IMG/VR virus record: IMGVR_UViG_3300045988_119600
Direction: 5' to 3' (one strand)
From: a virus
DNA length: 64,000 bases
Part shown: positions 39,667-47,607 of the stretch, piece by piece
Layout of the letters: each line of letters starts with the position of its first letter
Numbering within the stretch: position 1 is the stretch's first letter
Made by a program: the position numbers and the translations under genes
Notes under the pieces: model-generated
Told to the model about the DNA's origin: nothing
What the model saw: the letters and a program-made list of their open reading frames with translations, nothing else
The model's database searches: none

Positions 39667-41043
39667 ATGAGTTATAATGCATATGTTTGTAGAATTAAAA
39701 ATTTAAGAAAACATAATAATGCTGATAAGTTGATGTTGGGTGAATGTTTTGGTAATACTGTGTGTGTTGATACTTCTTATGAAGTTGATGAACTCGGTAT
39801 TTATTTTCCCACCGATGGTCAGGTAAGTCCTGAATTTGCTGAAAATAATAACCTTTTGCGCAAGAAAGATGAAAATGGTAAGAGCATTGGTGGTTATATG
39901 GACCCCATGAAGCGCAATATTACCACTATCCGTTTGCGTGGAGAGAAGAGCGATGGTCTTTTTCTTCATCTTAATTGCGTTTCTTATACTGGAGTTCTTC
40001 TTAATGAACTGACCGAGGGTCTCGCATTTACTACTCTGAATGGGCATGAGATTTGTAAGAAGTATATTCCCATGCGTCAGAATCGTCAGGGTAATGTAAG
40101 TGAAGGGAACCGGGTGCGTAAGAAGAAAGCTCCTGTTGCTCCTTTGTTTATCGAGCATGCTGATACGGAACAGTTGGCTTATAATCTTAATGCTTTTAAG
40201 CCGAATGACCTTGTTGAGATTACTCTGAAAATGCATGGCACTTCTCAGCGCACCGGTTATCTTCCTATGCTTAAGGGTTATAAGAAAACTCTTTTGGATA
40301 GAATTATGCGTCGTGATGGCACTCCTATTTATGAATATGGATATGTATCTGGCACTCGTCGCACTGTGCTGAATGACTGGGAGGGTGGCTTCTATGGTTC
40401 TAATATGTTCCGCAAGAAGCACGCGGATTTCTTTGAGGGTAAACTCCATAAGGGTGAGGAAGTTTATTATGAGGTTGTTGGTTTTACTGATGAGGGTATG
40501 CCTATTATGTCCTCTGCTTCTAATAGAAAGCTGAATGATAAGGATTTCCTTAAGAAGTATGGTGAAACTACTACCTTCTCTTATGGTTGTTCTTGCACTG
40601 GTTATTATACCTATGGTGATGGTAGCTATGATGTGCTTCCCAAGTCTGATTTCTATGTCTATCGTATGACTATGACTAATGAAGATGGAGACGTTGTTGA
40701 ATACACTCCTGATTTCATGCGTTATCGTTGTGAGCAGATGGGTTGTAAGTATGTCCCTGTCCTGTGGAGAGGTTTTCTGGACGATACCACTGATTGGAAT
40801 GACGCAGGTATGACTGCTGGTGAGCAGGTTAAAGAAATCGCTGAGCGGTATTATGATGGTCCTGATCCGATTGGTAAGACCCATGTTCGTGAAGGCGTTG
40901 TAATTCGTATTCTTAATCGTCCGAAGTTCTGTGCTTATAAGCATAAGAATTTTGCTTTTAAGTGTCTTGAAGGCTTGGTAAAAGCAGAAGAGACCGCGCC
41001 TGATATGGAAGAGGCCGAAGAGGTGCAGAATGACGAAACTTGA
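39667..41043 (+). CDS. ATP-dependent RNA ligase (Rnl2-like motifs I KMHGTS, IV EGVVIR, V KHKN) fused to an N-terminal tRNA-binding OB-fold domain
   Basis: RBS aaagaaagtgtttaatATG. N-terminal VCRIKNLRKHNNADKLMLGECFGNTVCVD. Motifs LKMHGTSQ, EVYYEVVG, HVREGVVIRI, AYKHKNFAFK. GC-richer codons. Confidence 0.6.
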   Translation: MSYNAYVCRIKNLRKHNNADKLMLGECFGNTVCVDTSYEVDELGIYFPTDGQVSPEFAENNNLLRKKDENGKSIGGYMDPMKRNITTIRLRGEKSDGLFLHLNCVSYTGVLLNELTEGLAFTTLNGHEICKKYIPMRQNRQGNVSEGNRVRKKKAPVAPLFIEHADTEQLAYNLNAFKPNDLVEITLKMHGTSQRTGYLPMLKGYKKTLLDRIMRRDGTPIYEYGYVSGTRRTVLNDWEGGFYGSNMFRKKHADFFEGKLHKGEEVYYEVVGFTDEGMPIMSSASNRKLNDKDFLKKYGETTTFSYGCSCTGYYTYGDGSYDVLPKSDFYVYRMTMTNEDGDVVEYTPDFMRYRCEQMGCKYVPVLWRGFLDDTTDWNDAGMTAGEQVKEIAERYYDGPDPIGKTHVREGVVIRILNRPKFCAYKHKNFAFKCLEGLVKAEETAPDMEEAEEVQNDET

Positions 41044-41221
41044 TGAATTGATGGAACATTTATCGTTAGATGCAGAGTGGGCTTCCGCTAATGAGTGGGA
41101 AGCCCCTATCTGCCTTTATGACGATATTCTTGATGCTCTTACTATTTTAAGAGTTATAGCAATTCTTAAAAGAATCGGAACATTAGACCAAATTGGATAT
41201 GTCTTGGAGGATTATCTATGA
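41030..41221 (+). CDS. Hypothetical small protein (63 aa)
   Basis: ORF track. Confidence 0.4.
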   Translation: MTKLDELMEHLSLDAEWASANEWEAPICLYDDILDALTILRVIAILKRIGTLDQIGYVLEDYL

Positions 41222-41619
41222 TTGATAATGAAGCTGTAAGTCAAGCTAAAACTGATACATATGAAATTAGAGAACGAATTCCTATCGCTCTTTGGGACAA
41301 AGTAAGTGAAGATCTAACACGAGATCAATGCTATTCTTATTGGCAATATTGCCTTGAATGTGTCCAACAGATGGCTGACGCTTGGGAAGAAGTTAATGGT
41401 GAAAATCTTATTTGGGTTCCGGGCCATTATGAAAAGAAAGAAGAATCCAAGAGCGAAAATGTTCCAATTACTGAAGTAGTTAAAAAATGTGAGTGTTATC
41501 ATTTAAGAGATGATAAAACCGCAGAATGTTGGGGCACTAAGGAACGCGAAATCTGTTCCTGTGGTGGCGATTCAAGATTTTGTAATTTTTATCATACCGG
41601 AGATAGAATTAGTGGTTAA
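41218..41619 (+). CDS. Cys-rich hypothetical protein (133 aa)
   Basis: ORF track. Confidence 0.5.
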   Translation: MIDNEAVSQAKTDTYEIRERIPIALWDKVSEDLTRDQCYSYWQYCLECVQQMADAWEEVNGENLIWVPGHYEKKEESKSENVPITEVVKKCECYHLRDDKTAECWGTKEREICSCGGDSRFCNFYHTGDRISG

Positions 41620-42109
41620 ACAGATTACTTATTATAAAAATAAAAGCCTATTAGACCTACCTCCTAATATTGTAATTTGTCATCAAGTGAATTGTCAAGG
41701 CGTTATGGGCGCGGGCCTTGCCAAACAAATTCGTATTCGTTGGCCTGAAGTCTATATAGATTATAAAAAAACTATTGAAAACGCGGAAACGCAAGTCGCA
41801 GGATTAGAAAATCCACCTGATGACATTTTACTTGGTGCGGTTGCTTGCACTACTACCGTAGATGGTCATAGAGTAGCAAGTTTATTCGCCCAATATGATT
41901 ACGGGTATGGCCCGCGCAGATATACTAATTATGAAGCATTTGCTAGTTGTTTAGAAAATTTAAATAAATTAGTTCCGGGCTATGTTCCGATTGCTTTTCC
42001 TTATAAAATTGGGTGTGGTCTTGGTGGAGGAGACTGGGATATTATTCAATTAATGATTAGAAAAATTCTCCATCACGAAGATGTTTATATCTGTCAGTTG
42101 GAGGATTAA
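41609..42109 (+). CDS. Macro domain (ADP-ribose-binding/processing) protein
   Basis: ICHQVNCQGVMGAGLAKQI...LGGGDWD. ORF opens at 41510 overlapping the upstream gene. GTG 41609 with ggaga RBS is the likelier start. Confidence 0.6.
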   Translation, partial: LVVKQITYYKNKSLLDLPPNIVICHQVNCQGVMGAGLAKQIRIRWPEVYIDYKKTIENAETQVAGLENPPDDILLGAVACTTTVDGHRVASLFAQYDYGYGPRRYTNYEAFASCLENLNKLVPGYVPIAFPYKIGCGLGGGDWDIIQLMIRKILHHEDVYICQLED

Positions 42110-42110
42110 A

Positions 42111-45736: not shown

Positions 45737-46003
45737 ATGGCATCTTATGAAAATCATGATTTTTACTGTATGAATTGTGGACGAAAAGGAATCCCTTTGT
45801 CTCGTCGAGTAAGTCTTCAACATGGTAAATTTCATCGTAAAAAGCTGTATTGTATTTATTGCAAAGAAGAAGTAAATCATATCGAATGTAGAACTCCAGA
45901 AGAAGTAGAAGAGTTTAAAGAAAATTTTGAGAATGGGGTGTATAAAGATGAAGCAAAAGAATCTTTGGATTATGTCCGGAATACCTCTTTTGGCAAAACC
46001 TAA
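45737..46003 (+). CDS. Zinc-ribbon protein (88 aa)
   Basis: RBS aaggag then ATG 45737; CMNC...CIYC. Confidence 0.5.
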   Translation: MASYENHDFYCMNCGRKGIPLSRRVSLQHGKFHRKKLYCIYCKEEVNHIECRTPEEVEEFKENFENGVYKDEAKESLDYVRNTSFGKT

Positions 46004-46059
46004 CAATCATTATTAAATAAATTTTAAATATAATAATTCAATATAAAGGAGATTATTAT

Positions 46060-46542
46060 ATGAAATTAGTTTGTTAGCATTGTGGTAAAGAATTTGAGGG
46101 ATCCCGTAGAGACACTAAATATTGTTCTCAATCTTGTTAGGCGAAAGCTTCAAGATTGCGTCGAAGTCAAGGCATAAATATTTCTGAAAAAATTTGTGCT
46201 AAATGTGGAAAAAAATTTATAGTAAAAGAAAATGCTTATAATAGAAGATATTGTTATGAATGTGTTCCATTAGTGCCGAAATCTGGAGCAGGACAAAGAG
46301 CATTAATAAAAAAATGGGCCTTAGAATATAAAGGAAATAAATGTGAGATTTGCGGATATAATAAATGTTCTGAAGCACTTGATTTTCATCACTTAGATCC
46401 TCAAGAAAAAGATTTTAATTTAAGTGATAGAAATTTAATTTTAGATTGGCAAGTTATTAAAAAAGAATTAGATAAATGTCAATTAGTATGTGCTAATTGT
46501 CATAGAGAAATTCATAGCAAAGAAAAGAAAGGGGATGATTAA
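46060..46542 (+). CDS. HNH endonuclease (160 aa), TAG at 46075 and 46138
   Basis: RBS aaaggag; DFHHLDP...CANCHREIH. Confidence 0.6.
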
Positions 46543-47062
46543 ATGAATACTAGAAAGAATCTTTGGATTATGTCTGGTATTCCTTAGTCTCGGCTCGGGT
46601 AAATCCACTTGGCTTAAAAATCGTTGGCCTCAATGCGGTTGTGTTGTTTCTCGTGATGCTCTCCGTTTTCAAATGTTAAATGATGATGAAAGCTATTTTG
46701 CCAAAGAGGAAAGTGTATGGCATGCTTTTGTTGAAGCAATTACTCTTTCTTTAAGAGATTATGATAATGTATATGTGGATGCCACGCATCTTGGACCCGG
46801 CTCTCGCAAGAAGCTTCTTAAAGCAATTAACGCAAAAGGATATGCAAATCTTAATGTGAATGTTATTTATTTTAATGTTCCTGTTGAAGTTTGTGTTGAG
46901 CGCAATAAACAGCGTGATGGTCGAGCGCAGGTTCCAGAAGAAGTGATTCGGAGTATGGCAAATTCTTTTACTCCTCCCACTTTTAAAGAATATGTTAAAT
47001 ATAACCTTATCCAAGAGGTTAACGAAAAAGGAGAAGTGATTCATACATGGCAATCTTTTTAA
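46543..47062 (+). pseudogene. Polynucleotide 5'-kinase (T4 Pnk-like P-loop) interrupted by a 7-nt tract (tagtctc) at 46585-46591
   Basis: ATG 46543 with good RBS gives MNTRKNLWIMSGIP then TAG then TAA (46600) in frame 1. Walker A GSGKSTW and the rest of the kinase are in frame 2 with no start codon. Confidence 0.45.
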
Positions 47063-47607
47063 CCAGTGATATGCACTTTGGACATGATCGAGAATTTATT
47101 TGGAAAGCTCGTGGTTATTCTTCAATTGAAGGAATGAATGAAGATTATGTTGAGAAATGGAATAGCATCGTTTCTGATGAAGATGATGTTTATATTCTTG
47201 GTGATTTAATGCTTGGAGACCCTTCTAATATTGAATATATTAAACGTCTCAAGGGTAAATTCCATATTGTATTTGGCAACCATGATACGGCAACTCGACA
47301 GAAACTTTATGCTGATTTGCCTAATGTTGTTGAAATGGATTGGGCGATTATGCTAAATTATCGTAAATACCATTTCTTTATGACCCATTTTCCTTGTATG
47401 ACTGGTAATCTTGAAAGAGAAAATCTTCATCAAATGACTTTGAATCTTTACGGTCATACTCATCAAACCACTAACTTCTTTGAAGATCGACCTTATATGT
47501 ATCATGTAGGTGTTGACTCTCATCATGGCTATCCAATTAATCTTGATATAATCATTGATGCTATGAAAGCCAAAGTTGAGGAATGTAAATCATTTCTTGA
47601 TGAATGA
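47047..47607 (+). CDS. Calcineurin-like metallophosphoesterase (possible RNA 2',3'-phosphoesterase partner of Pnk)
   Basis: DMHFGH, GDL, GNHD, GHTH. Confidence 0.6.
   Translation: MAIFLTSDMHFGHDREFIWKARGYSSIEGMNEDYVEKWNSIVSDEDDVYILGDLMLGDPSNIEYIKRLKGKFHIVFGNHDTATRQKLYADLPNVVEMDWAIMLNYRKYHFFMTHFPCMTGNLERENLHQMTLNLYGHTHQTTNFFEDRPYMYHVGVDSHHGYPINLDIIIDAMKAKVEECKSFLDE

What the first reader, a model, noticed from the sequence alone, without database searches (positions are those of the whole stretch)
39667..47607. RNA-repair gene set: tRNA-binding-domain-fused Rnl2-like ligase, Pnk-like kinase and metallophosphoesterase
The ligase has nucleotidyltransferase motifs I, III, IV and V in Rnl2 order, preceded by an OB-fold resembling Trbp111/EMAP/MetRS C-terminal tRNA-binding domains (HNNADKL..G motif). 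A T4 Pnk-like P-loop kinase at 46543 and a calcineurin-type phosphoesterase at 47047 are adjacent. Together these make an end-healing and sealing pathway of the kind T4 uses against anticodon nucleases. Here they may also serve the split and interrupted tRNAs of this genome.
Basis: partly seen in the sequence, partly recalled or inferred. Interest (0 to 1): 0.7.

Follow-up and report, generated by a model that had tools for sequence, protein, structure and literature searches.

The report
RNA-repair island with gapped kinase gene
A large gut phage carries a fairly typical set of RNA break-repair genes, but a selfish endonuclease has invaded its kinase gene and left a 7-base gap that starts with a stop codon; ribosomes probably have to hop over this gap, a decoding trick known mainly from phage T4.

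Summary

The "kinase at 46543" is not one ORF. An HNH homing-endonuclease cassette (45986-46591) sits inside the Walker A codons. It supplies a new kinase N-terminus (46543-46584) followed by 7 untranslatable bases (TAGTCTC). The same structure occurs in more than 30 independent contigs. Three other HNH lineages have a gap at the identical spot: TAGTCTT, TAAGGCTA and TGAACCA. Each gap directly follows CCT, starts with a stop codon and ends in C[CU]N. Deleting it restores G[IL]PGSGKST. I read this as a programmed 7-8 nt ribosomal hop (about 0.55). The main rival is a dead kinase (about 0.3).

The parts
34527..34847 (+). cRec (cyclic-phosphate processing receiver-like) domain protein
   Evidence: Pfam PF20274 65.3 bits, cut-off 27. 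This family is reported to be linked to RNA ligases in phages (PMC7824862).
35461..36267 (+). RlaP-family Pol-beta nucleotidyltransferase (RNA ligase-associated)
   Evidence: PF10127 22.9 bits against cut-off 23. PHROG 388 E 2e-21. A homologue is present in 72 of 80 ligase loci; in distant relatives it lies directly between the ligase and the kinase-HD gene.
37386..38120 (+). Metallophosphoesterase no. 1 (role unknown)
   Evidence: Pfam Metallophos E 4e-7; PHROG 1649.
38922..39665 (+). Homing-endonuclease-like gene directly upstream of the ligase, with 2 in-frame TAG codons
   Evidence: PHROG 559/9084. ORF with TAG read as sense. Corresponds to a 247-aa gene in L001.
39667..41043 (+). Rnl5-family ATP-dependent RNA ligase (N-terminal OB domain, C-terminal nucleotidyltransferase)
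41510..42109 (+). Macro-domain protein (DarG-like; probable start near 41705)
   Evidence: PHROG 335 E 6e-39; NCBIfam DarG E 7e-11; Pfam Macro E 3e-3.
42918..43361 (+). NADAR-domain protein
   Evidence: PF08719 98.8 bits.
44453..45172 (+). Lambda-phosphatase-like metallophosphoesterase (GDxxDRG, GNHE), the type found in the bacterial Pnkp phosphatase domain
   Evidence: Metallophos E 2e-9; PHROG 246; PHROG 8238 positions 173-304; PDB 1g5b E 2e-3.
45728..46003 (+). Zn-ribbon ORF upstream of the kinase. Its last 5 codons (SFGKT*) come from the cassette. In HNH-free relatives this ORF overlaps the kinase start.
   Evidence: Comparison with L001; PHROG 1257.
45948..46016 (+). Left remnant of the original kinase N-terminus (MKQKNLWIMSGIP followed by junk and a stop)
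   Evidence: Alignment with intact alleles in L001, L004 and L019.
45986..46591 (+). Inserted HNH cassette (606 nt): new tail for the upstream ORF, the HNH gene, a replacement kinase N-terminus and the 7-nt gap
   Evidence: Absent from L001, L004 and L019-L029, where the kinase is intact. Present in 34 loci.
46060..46542 (+). HNH homing endonuclease, 160 codons, with in-frame TAG at 46075-46077 and 46138-46140 read as Gln
   Evidence: PHROG 2255 alignment extends over the TAG-containing N-terminus. P0271, 98% identical, has Q at both positions.
46543..46584 (+). Kinase segment 1: MNTRKNLWIMSGIP, ending in the proposed take-off codon CCT
46585..46591 (+). Coding gap TAGTCTC: an in-frame stop, one base, and the proposed landing codon CTC
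46592..47062 (+). Kinase segment 2: GSGKST... through the stop codon. Pnk-type 5'-kinase body with SRDxxR and RNxxRxxR..VP motifs.
   Evidence: AAA_33 E 2e-19. PDB hits: CthPnkp kinase domain 4gp7 E 1.7e-9, PSTK, T4 Pnk 1ly1 E 1.7e-4.
47047..47607 (+). Metallophosphoesterase (aq_1665-like). Overlaps the kinase stop by 16 nt. Candidate 2',3'-cyclic-phosphate/3'-phosphate end-healing enzyme.
   Evidence: Metallophos_2 E 2e-11; PHROG 547 E 2e-40. Profile A3 against PDB 1xm7 E 3e-23. Adjacent to the kinase in 25 loci and mutually exclusive with kinase-HD fusions.
4207..4296 (+). Suppressor tRNA with anticodon CUA. It bears on how the UAG at the gap is read.
   Evidence: ARAGORN; Rfam tRNA 57.8 bits.

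Best explanation
Window 34.5-47.6 kb is an RNA break-repair island of a roughly 190-kb gut phage in which TAG is recoded to Gln.

Inferred pathway. [quoted passage not shown] The phosphoesterase(s) heal the 3' end: the MPE at 47047, possibly the cRec protein and the lambda-phosphatase-like MPE. The Pnk-type kinase heals the 5' end. RlaP optionally restores a lost 3' nucleotide. The Rnl5-type ligase seals the break by way of lysyl-AMP at the KMHGTS lysine.

What is shown: the folds, the catalytic motifs and the conserved gene linkage. What is inferred: the substrates and the order of reactions.

The kinase gene. In this genome an HNH homing-endonuclease cassette has invaded the kinase gene within the Walker A codons. 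The cassette preserves the upstream ORF with a new tail. It re-supplies the kinase N-terminus (MNTRKNLWIMSGIP). It places 7 extra bases (TAGTCTC) between the Pro codon CCT and GGC TCG GGT AAA.

Proposed decoding. With peptidyl-tRNAPro on CCU and UAG in the A site, the ribosome takes off. The tRNA re-pairs with CUC 7 nt downstream, and decoding resumes at GGC. The product is a full-length kinase with the canonical GIPGSGKST. The gap would protect the phage's own DNA from its HNH enzyme without changing the protein, as in the T4 mobA/gene 60 element.
For: Repair island.
- Ligase is Rnl5.
- Kinase is Pnk-type.
- Of 80 IMG/VR loci encoding ligase relatives (60-98% identical), 74 have a Pnk-like kinase within 10 kb. 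In 48 it is a kinase-HD fusion and in 25 it is followed by this MPE, never both. 72 have RlaP.
- cRec, Macro and NADAR are present, matching phage RNA-repair and ADP-ribose systems described in PMC7824862. RlaP adds 1-2 nucleotides to damaged RNA 3' ends (PMC12776372).

Gap.
- HNH-free relatives have an intact 169-aa kinase reading ...CCA GGC TCG GGT AAA.
- The identical cassette and gap occur in 34 loci from many samples.
- Other HNH lineages (58-76% identical in pairwise comparison) carry different gaps at exactly the same codon boundary: TAGTCTT (L119), TAAGGCTA, 8 nt (L204), and TGAACCA (L206).
- All four gaps begin with an in-frame stop (TAG, TAA or TGA) directly after CCT and end in CUC, CUU, CUA or CCA. 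These are codons that a tRNAPro anticodon can pair with, using G-U at the middle position or, in L206, fully cognate pairing.
- Deleting the gap gives G[IL]PGSGKST in every case.
- Gaps of both 7 and 8 nt exclude any single +1 or -1 slip as a common mechanism.
- Gap-bearing HNH lineages are not monophyletic.
- The short N-terminal ORFs are kept open, each with a start codon, a hydrophobic beta-strand and G[IL]P. They track lineage-specific residues of the native N-terminus (W/S versus Y/C) while keeping cassette-specific synonymous codons.
- 29 of 29 complete kinase bodies downstream of gaps are intact; 18 are distinct DNA sequences.
- The ligase, MPE, RlaP and cRec genes remain intact in the same genomes.
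- The architecture (HNH gene, new C-terminal tail, homologous replacement of the N-terminus, gap) mirrors the MobA bypass element.
Against: - No protein or RNA data exist. Everything rests on sequence.
- In this window the landing codon is CUC, not a cognate Pro codon. Only L206 has a cognate pair (CCU to CCA).
- A hop at codon 14 has no long nascent-peptide signal like that of gene 60.
- The RNA hairpins found 5' of the take-off site differ between lineages, and a similar one occurs in a gap-less allele.
- The cassette is young relative to its flanks. For L119 against L120, HNH dS is 0.012 while flanking genes have dS 0.15-0.26. The low dN/dS of kinase bodies (0.02-0.14) and their intactness could therefore predate invasion and do not prove selection after it.
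- UAG is a Gln codon in this phage when its suppressor tRNA is active. Reading it would give a 19-aa dead-end peptide.
- For the island: the ligase lies 5.5 kb from the kinase; Rnl5 enzymes seal nicks in duplexes and their physiological substrates are unknown; the MPE clade (aq_1665-like) is uncharacterised.
Confidence: 0.55

Rival explanations
1. The kinase is simply dead in this genome. The HNH cassette spreads by homing and each invasion inactivates the kinase. The 7-8 nt insertions are repair scars at the HNH cut site, kept because they make the site uncleavable. The phage tolerates loss of the kinase.
For: - The frame break has no start codon downstream in frame.
- The cassette is much younger than its flanks (HNH dS 0.012 against 0.15-0.26), so intact kinase bodies need not reflect selection after invasion.
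- HNH-free intact alleles co-circulate.
- The region is riddled with homing endonuclease genes.
Against: - Three or four different gap sequences all start with an in-frame stop directly after CCT and all end in C[CU]N. By chance this is roughly (3/64)^3 x (1/8)^3 for three independent origins.
- The cassette goes to the length of re-supplying an N-terminus with a start codon and G[IL]P, and this is kept open and host-matched in all lineages.
- Gap-less versions of the same cassette give seamless kinases (L202, L227-L229).
- No decayed kinase body was found among 29.
- Partner genes remain intact.
Confidence: 0.3
2. The gap is decoded by a programmed +1 frameshift at CCU-UAG. tRNAPro slips onto CUU with a slow stop codon in the A site, as in prfB CUU-UGA or the Listeria phage PSA CCC-UGA case recalled from memory. 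The kinase would then read GIP-SL-GSGKST.
For: - CCU followed by U and a stop in the A site fits known +1 shift sites (own knowledge of prfB, antizyme and tRNAPro slippage).
- In the +1 frame the gap reads AGU CUC or AGU CUU, Ser-Leu in both, so the C/T difference between lineages is synonymous.
Against: - The product would carry a 2-residue insertion inside Walker A, replacing the first Gly of GxxxxGK[ST] with Pro.
- The 8-nt gap of L204 needs a +2 or -1 shift, not +1.
- L206 would give an EP insertion.
- There is no SD-like stimulator upstream.
Confidence: 0.1
3. The gene set mainly serves the phage's own RNA processing rather than counter-defence against host anticodon nucleases. Examples would be joining the exons of the intron-containing tRNA at 26052-26191, or ends produced by ribozyme-type cleavage. 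This is not exclusive of the main explanation.
For: - A tRNA with an insertion of about 68 nt in the anticodon loop, too short for a group I intron.
- A RAGATH-33 RNA, a class associated with self-cleaving ribozyme contexts, at 24848-24976.
- 13 phage tRNA genes.
Against: - No splicing endonuclease was identified in the window.
- Relatives were not checked for co-occurrence of the intron and the ligase.
- The same gene set is widespread in phages and bacteria and is generally interpreted as damage repair (PMC7824862).
- Rnl5 prefers nicks in duplexes.
Confidence: 0.2
4. The Rnl5 ligase acts on nicks in RNA:DNA or RNA-primed DNA duplexes (replication or repair intermediates) rather than on tRNA, and its neighbourhood with the kinase is incidental.
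For: NgrRnl and DraRnl seal 3'-OH/5'-PO4 nicks in duplexes with an RNA 3'-OH strand. DraRnl protects against radiation (PMC7261155, PMC5397189).
Against: The linkage of ligase, RlaP, kinase and phosphoesterase is kept in 74 of 80 divergent loci, and the phosphoesterase type is swapped between lineages. That argues for a single RNA end-healing and sealing pathway.
Confidence: 0.15

Closest known systems
Rnl5 RNA ligases (Naegleria gruberi NgrRnl, PDB 5COT; Deinococcus radiodurans DraRnl, TIGR02306)
   Different: About 120 residues longer, with insertions in the NTase domain. Only 21% identical. Motif I is KxHGTS, with His as in Rnl2, rather than KLDGSS. Below the TIGR02306 cut-off. Activity is untested.
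T4 Rnl2 / trypanosome RNA editing ligase
   Different: No Rnl2 C-terminal domain. The accessory domain is N-terminal and an OB fold.
Bacterial Pnkp (Clostridium thermocellum kinase-phosphatase-ligase) and T4 Pnkp
   Same: The kinase body is homologous to the CthPnkp kinase domain (E 1.7e-9) and to T4 Pnk (E 1.7e-4). A lambda-phosphatase-type MPE like the Pnkp phosphatase domain lies nearby (44453).
   Different: The functions are on separate polypeptides. The conserved partner MPE (47047) is of another, uncharacterised clade (aq_1665-like). There is no HAD phosphatase as in T4. The ligase is Rnl5, not Rnl4.
Phage RNA-repair and ADP-ribose conflict islands (Iyer et al. 2021, PMC7824862; RlaP, PMC12776372)
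   Same: Same parts list: ATP-dependent RNA ligase, polynucleotide kinase, phosphoesterases, RlaP, cRec, Macro, NADAR and many phage tRNAs.
   Different: This is a particular combination in an uncultured gut phage with TAG recoded to Gln. The kinase is invaded by a homing endonuclease gene.
T4 gene 60 / MobA mobile bypass element (Bonocora et al. 2011, cited from memory; Manning & Atkins bioRxiv 10.1101/2022.08.31.505936)
   Same: An HNH homing endonuclease inserted in a conserved enzyme gene. It adds a tail to the upstream ORF, re-supplies a homologous N-terminal piece for the downstream part, and leaves an untranslatable gap whose first codon is a stop directly after the take-off codon. The gap lies at the nuclease's target region.
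   Different: The gap is 7-8 nt rather than 50 nt. The take-off codon is CCU (Pro) rather than GGA. The landing codon is mostly near-cognate (CUN). The nascent chain is only 14 residues, so there is no long peptide signal. The host gene (Pnk kinase) and the HNH family are different. The gaps appear to have arisen more than once.
Short 'stop-hops' in E. coli (Weiss et al. 1987, as summarised in PMC5009743)
   Same: Peptidyl-tRNA leaves a codon that is followed by a stop and re-pairs a few nucleotides downstream.
   Different: Those are low-efficiency events in synthetic constructs with matched codons. According to that review, no naturally used case of this short type is established.

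Membership tests
Rnl5 RNA ligase family | N-terminal OB-fold module followed by a C-terminal nucleotidyltransferase domain (the reverse of other ligases) | tested here: met
Rnl5 RNA ligase family | Covalent nucleotidyltransferase motifs: motif I Lys, motif III Glu, motif IV Glu, motif V Lys-x-Lys | tested here: met
   Invariant K188, E269, E409-G410, K425 and K427 in a 70-sequence alignment.
Rnl5 RNA ligase family | Curated sequence-model membership (TIGR02306 RNA_lig_DRB0094; Pfam PF09414 and PF21189) | tested here: inconclusive
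   TIGR02306 37.7 bits against cut-off 151. PF09414 27.6 against 27. PF21189 19.5 against 27. PHROG 968 E 3e-65.
Rnl5 RNA ligase family | ATP-dependent sealing of 3'-OH/5'-PO4 nicks with an RNA 3'-OH strand | not testable with these tools
   Needs an enzyme assay.
Rnl2 RNA ligase family | N-terminal NTase followed by the Rnl2-specific C-terminal domain | tested here: not met
tRNA_bind (Trbp111/CsaA/EMAP-II/MetRS-C) OB domains | Sequence-profile membership in the family | tested here: not met
   No tRNA_bind Pfam hit at E <= 0.01. Only weak PheRS beta-subunit profile hits at E 0.06-0.5.
tRNA_bind (Trbp111/CsaA/EMAP-II/MetRS-C) OB domains | Shared fold | tested here: met
Polynucleotide 5'-kinase (T4 Pnk / CthPnkp clade of P-loop kinases) | Contiguous Walker A GxxxxGK[ST] | tested here: not met
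   In the window the motif is split: GIP, then the 7-nt gap, then GSGKST. It is met only if the gap is skipped. It is met in HNH-free relatives.
Polynucleotide 5'-kinase (T4 Pnk / CthPnkp clade of P-loop kinases) | Homology of the kinase body, including the Asp general-base motif (SRDxxR) and the RNxxR..R lid arginines | tested here: met
   CthPnkp kinase domain 4gp7 E 1.7e-9, T4 Pnk 1ly1 E 1.7e-4, PSTK. TIGR04075 bacter_Pnkp E 1.4e-12. The motifs are visible in the sequence.
Calcineurin-like metallophosphoesterase | Metal-binding motifs DxH, GD, GNH[DE], H, GHxH | tested here: met
   Invariant or nearly invariant H13, G52-D53, N78-H79, H114, G136-H137 and H139 in alignment A3. Pfam Metallophos_2 E 2e-11.
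Calcineurin-like metallophosphoesterase | 2',3'-cyclic phosphodiesterase / 3'-phosphatase activity on RNA ends | not testable with these tools
   Inferred only from conserved adjacency to the kinase and mutual exclusion with kinase-HD fusions. The nearest structure, 1xm7, is uncharacterised.
RlaP (PF10127) | Pfam gathering threshold | tested here: inconclusive
   22.9 bits against 23. PHROG 388 'nucleotidyltransferase' E 2e-21. The conserved position next to the ligase supports membership.
Programmed translational bypassing (gene 60 type) | Two out-of-frame ORF segments that together encode one conserved protein, separated by a non-coding gap | tested here: met
   Segments 46543-46584 and 46592-47062. 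Joining them gives a protein collinear with the intact kinases of relatives.
Programmed translational bypassing (gene 60 type) | Take-off codon immediately followed by a stop codon | tested here: met
   CCT TAG in the window. CCT TAG, CCT TAA and CCT TGA in the other lineages.
Programmed translational bypassing (gene 60 type) | Landing codon matching the take-off codon | tested here: inconclusive
   Cognate only in L206 (CCU to CCA). CUC, CUU or CUA elsewhere, which needs a G-U pair at the middle position.
Programmed translational bypassing (gene 60 type) | Stimulatory nascent peptide and take-off stem-loop | tested here: inconclusive
   The nascent chain is only 14 residues. A 10-bp hairpin ends at the take-off codon in the window and in L119 (z -2.3 to -3.0). 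In L204 a 10-bp hairpin has CCU in its loop. The structures are not homologous, and a hairpin also occurs in the gap-less L202.
Programmed translational bypassing (gene 60 type) | Demonstrated single polypeptide spanning the gap | not testable with these tools
   Needs mass spectrometry or a reporter assay.

The most novel reading that the evidence does not exclude
The kinase gap is a second, independent natural system of programmed translational bypassing linked to an HNH homing endonuclease. It would be a minimal 7-8 nt hop in which peptidyl-tRNAPro leaves CCU at an in-frame stop and lands on C[C/U]N, restoring an exact Walker A motif. It appears to have arisen repeatedly at the same codon boundary in different cassette lineages. 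In this TAG-to-Gln recoded phage its efficiency would depend on whether UAG is being read by RF1, by nothing, or by the phage suppressor tRNA. That would couple kinase output to the stage of code switching.
Probability: 0.5. Interest if true: 0.85.

Novelty: new variant of a known kind. Interest (0 to 1): 0.62.

Why it matters
The RNA-repair set on its own adds one more example to a known class. It does sharpen the annotation: Rnl5 rather than Rnl2, and RlaP and cRec belong to the set.

The gapped kinase matters more. Naturally used translational bypassing is known from very few systems: T4 gene 60 and its homologues, and yeast mitochondrial 'byps'. How such elements originate is an open question.

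Here there is a series of related cassettes, some without a gap and some with three different minimal gaps at one site. All are tied to one HNH family and one easily assayed enzyme motif. That makes two ideas directly testable with simple reporters and mass spectrometry. One is the 'immunity insert that must remain decodable' model for the origin of bypassing. The other concerns the pairing rules for take-off and landing by tRNAPro.

It is also a practical warning for annotation. Gene callers report these kinases as 114-130-aa fragments.

Tried and rejected
- Assembly or sequencing error. Rejected: the same junction is present in 34 loci from many samples and assemblers.
- Group I or other intron around the HNH gene. 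No Rfam hit in 45600-46900, even at E <= 10. No splice boundary gives U/G ends together with an in-frame canonical P-loop.
- Alternative start codon in the kinase frame. CTG in the window, GTG in L119 and L206, none in L204. There is no SD sequence, and the product would lack the beta-1 strand.
- Reading TAG as Gln. This gives a 19-aa peptide ending at TAA, and the sequence is not conserved in L031.
- dN/dS as proof that the kinase functions after invasion. Kinase bodies show dN/dS 0.02-0.14, but the HNH cassette is far younger than its flanks, so the test is not decisive.
- Search for further gap variants.
  - A degenerate DNA pattern in IMG/VR gave only the three known contigs plus two chance matches.
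  - An HNH alignment scan of IMG/VR returned only distant HNH genes, none next to kinases.
  - The JGI metagenome scan added five more copies of the window-type cassette but no new gap type.
- GenBank phage collection. No megablast match to 39000-48000.
- Single-sequence PDB search of the ligase gave only marginal Rnl2 hits. A profile and a structure model were needed.
- The 47047 MPE has no characterised close structure. A single-sequence search found nothing, and the profile hits the uncharacterised 1xm7.

Full report
**Context.** The window is AT-rich (about 32% G+C). Nearly all genes lie on the + strand. It has no close relative among deposited phage genomes. Its ligase is 84-100% identical to proteins on many human-gut metagenome contigs of about 160-197 kb, so it is a large uncultured gut phage. 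It carries at least 13 tRNA genes, including a suppressor with anticodon CUA.

TAG is a sense codon in many of its genes; several ORFs carry up to 10 in-frame TAGs. In the HNH gene discussed below, both TAG positions are Gln in a 98%-identical relative. The RNA-repair genes themselves contain no TAG.

**The ligase.** It also has the covalent nucleotidyltransferase motifs, invariant in a 70-sequence alignment of relatives 33-61% identical to it: K in KMHGTS, E in YYEVVG, EG in REGVV, and KxK in YKHKNF.
- Sequence models are borderline: PF09414 27.6 bits against 27; PF21189 19.5 against 27; TIGR02306 E 1e-9, far below its cut-off.
- PHROG 968 'RNA ligase' matches end to end at E 3e-65.
- A profile of the family hits Naegleria gruberi RNA ligase at E 4e-10.

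This architecture, however, defines the known Rnl5 family, which already includes phage members (PMC7261155). In NgrRnl the OB module promotes ligase adenylylation, and the enzymes seal nicks in duplexes. tRNA binding has not been shown for them.

**The kinase and the phosphoesterases.** The kinase body is AAA_33 (E 2e-19). It is homologous to the kinase domain of Clostridium thermocellum Pnkp (E 1.7e-9), to PSTK and to T4 Pnk (E 1.7e-4). The SRDxxR and RNxxRxxR..VP motifs are present.

The MPE at 47047-47607 overlaps the kinase stop. It has all the metal-binding motifs. Its nearest structure is the uncharacterised Aquifex aq_1665 (E 3e-23). A second MPE, at 44453-45172, is of the lambda-phosphatase type used by bacterial Pnkp. 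A third lies at 37386.

**Is it a functional set?** I fetched 80 IMG/VR loci that encode ligase relatives 60-98% identical to this one, each with 10-kb flanks.
- 74 have a Pnk-like kinase within 10 kb.
- In 25 of these the kinase is immediately followed by the 47047-type MPE.
- In 48 the kinase is instead fused to a C-terminal HD phosphohydrolase (AAA_33 plus HD).
- The two arrangements never co-occur.

This swap of phosphoesterase type around a constant kinase and ligase is good evidence for one end-healing and sealing pathway.

In 72 loci there is also a Pol-beta nucleotidyltransferase. In the window this is 35461-36267, and it is RlaP (PF10127 22.9 bits against 23; PHROG 388). In the distant relatives it lies directly between the ligase and the kinase-HD gene. 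A cRec domain protein is at 34527-34847 (PF20274, 65 bits). Macro and NADAR proteins lie between the ligase and the kinase.

All of these parts are listed for phage RNA-repair and ADP-ribose conflict systems by Iyer et al. (PMC7824862). RlaP has been shown to add one or two nucleotides to damaged RNA 3' ends (PMC12776372). As an RNA-repair island this is a new member of a known kind.

**The kinase gene is not intact.**
- ATG 46543 opens only 14 codons (MNTRKNLWIMSGIP) before TAG.
- GSGKST and the remaining 150 residues are in the +1 frame from 46592, with no start codon.
- A relative whose ligase is 95% identical (L001) has a normal 169-aa kinase, MKQKNLWIMSGIPGSGKST..., and no HNH gene.
- The comparison shows a 606-nt insertion (45986-46591) placed exactly after the Pro codon of GIP.

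The insertion consists of four pieces:
- a new 5-codon tail for the upstream Zn-ribbon ORF, which in HNH-free phages overlaps the kinase start;
- an HNH endonuclease gene (46060-46542, two TAG=Gln codons);
- a replacement kinase N-terminus, which uses different synonymous codons from the remnant left at 45948-46016;
- seven extra bases, TAGTCTC.

**It is real, and it is a mobile cassette.** The same junction occurs in 34 loci from many samples and assemblers. The kinase bodies downstream comprise 18 distinct DNA sequences. No intron model matches.

**Other lineages.** HNH relatives of the window's HNH, 49-76% identical in pairwise comparison, all sit at the same place, directly upstream of Pnk-like kinases in other phages. 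Most also have a left remnant of the original N-terminus.

In four lineages (L202, L227, L228, L229) the replacement N-terminus runs seamlessly into the kinase. In the others there is a gap at the identical codon boundary:

| Lineage | Sequence at the boundary | Gap length |
|---|---|---|
| L119/L120 | CCT TAG TCT T GGT | 7 nt |
| L204/L205 | CCT TAA GGC TA GGC | 8 nt |
| L206/L207 | CCT TGA ACC A GGT | 7 nt |

Every gap starts with an in-frame stop directly after CCT. Every gap ends with CUC, CUU, CUA or CCA just before the Gly codon. Removing it restores G[IL]PGSGKS[TY]. On an HNH tree the gap-bearing lineages are not monophyletic, so gaps were gained or lost more than once.

**Interpretation.**
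- A single +1 slip cannot serve both 7-nt and 8-nt gaps. It would also put two extra residues inside Walker A.
- Reading TAG as Gln leads to a short, unconserved peptide.
- No consistent internal start codon exists.

The simplest common mechanism is a short hop. Peptidyl-tRNAPro on CCU, facing a stop codon, disengages and re-pairs 7-8 nt downstream on C[C/U]N. The pairing is cognate in L206 and has a G-U middle pair elsewhere. Decoding then resumes at Gly.

The layout is that of the T4 MobA/gene 60 element: an HNH gene, a new C-terminal tail for the upstream ORF, a homologous replacement segment, and then the gap. In that element the gap protects the DNA from the element's own nuclease without changing a conserved protein segment (PMC5009743).

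A 10-bp hairpin from just after the start codon to the first base of CCU is predicted in the window (z -3.0). It is kept, with changes on both arms, in L119. L206 has an analogous hairpin. In L204 the take-off codon sits in the loop of a 10-bp hairpin whose 3' arm is the gap. These structures are suggestive only, because a gap-less allele also folds.

**Caveats.**
- Nothing here is experimental.
- The cassette is much younger than its flanks: HNH dS is 0.012 against 0.15-0.26 between L119 and L120. The strong purifying selection seen in kinase bodies, and the fact that all 29 complete bodies are intact, may therefore largely predate invasion.
- The 'dead kinase spread by a selfish element' reading stays alive at about 0.3.

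Against that reading stand several observations: the repeated stop-first, C[CU]N-last design at one codon boundary; the effort the cassette makes to re-supply a start codon, a beta-strand and G[IL]P; the way this N-terminus tracks lineage-specific residues; and the intact partner genes.

**Verdict.** It is ordinary for a large phage. This deserves a direct test.

Noticed in passing
window 26052-26191 (+): A tRNA gene (Rfam 59.9 bits; missed by ARAGORN) with an insertion of about 68-71 nt in the anticodon loop. This is too short for a group I intron. The insert contains a T-arm-like hairpin (GAGUUCAAAUCUC).
   Followed up: partly
window 24848-24976 (+): RAGATH-33 RNA (RF03102, 124.5 bits, above the gathering score of 120.4), lying among the tRNA genes. 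The class is associated with self-cleaving ribozyme contexts, and such cleavage would produce ends that the repair enzymes act on.
   Followed up: no
window 1217-1291 and 2876-2959 (+): Two further tRNA-like genes found by Rfam (46.0 and 35.1 bits) but not by ARAGORN.
   Followed up: no
window 4207-4296 (+) and genome-wide: A suppressor tRNA with anticodon CUA (90 nt, long variable arm), together with many ORFs that have 1-10 in-frame TAGs (for example 5477-6970, 14534-16039, 54477-55778). TAG corresponds to Gln in the HNH gene. The repair genes have no TAG, whereas the three homing-endonuclease-like ORFs scanned on the + strand (36552-37343, 38922-39665, 46060-46542) each have 2-5.
   Followed up: partly
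window 36552-37343, 38922-39665, 43629-44093 (-), 46060-46542; L117 4075-4815; L039: Homing-endonuclease genes are unusually dense around the repair genes. In some relatives a GIY-YIG endonuclease is additionally inserted between the kinase and the MPE.
   Followed up: partly
proteins P0124, P0132, P0134, P0139, P0141: Ligase relatives of about 790-813 aa match the query in two separated stretches. This suggests an intein or another insertion of about 350 aa inside the ligase in other phages.
   Followed up: no
window 30761-33259 and 28767-30293 (+): An 832-aa protein with major-vault-protein shoulder and vault-repeat domains (PF11978 75.7 bits, PF17795). Next to it is a 508-aa DUF2828/DUF7788 protein. 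This pair is unusual for a phage.
   Followed up: partly
window 38130-38405 and 42690-42917 (+): A ParE-toxin-like ORF (PF05016, 26.6 bits) and a homologue of the T7 gp5.9 RecBCD inhibitor (PF25708, 36.4 bits), both lying among the repair genes.
   Followed up: no
window 47908-49293 (+): A 461-aa SPFH/flotillin (Band_7) protein immediately downstream of the MPE. Its position is conserved in many related loci.
   Followed up: no
L048 14007-14759: In ligase-bearing relatives that lack the kinase (L048, L050, L051), a SIR2 protein and a NADAR protein lie downstream of the ligase instead.
   Followed up: no
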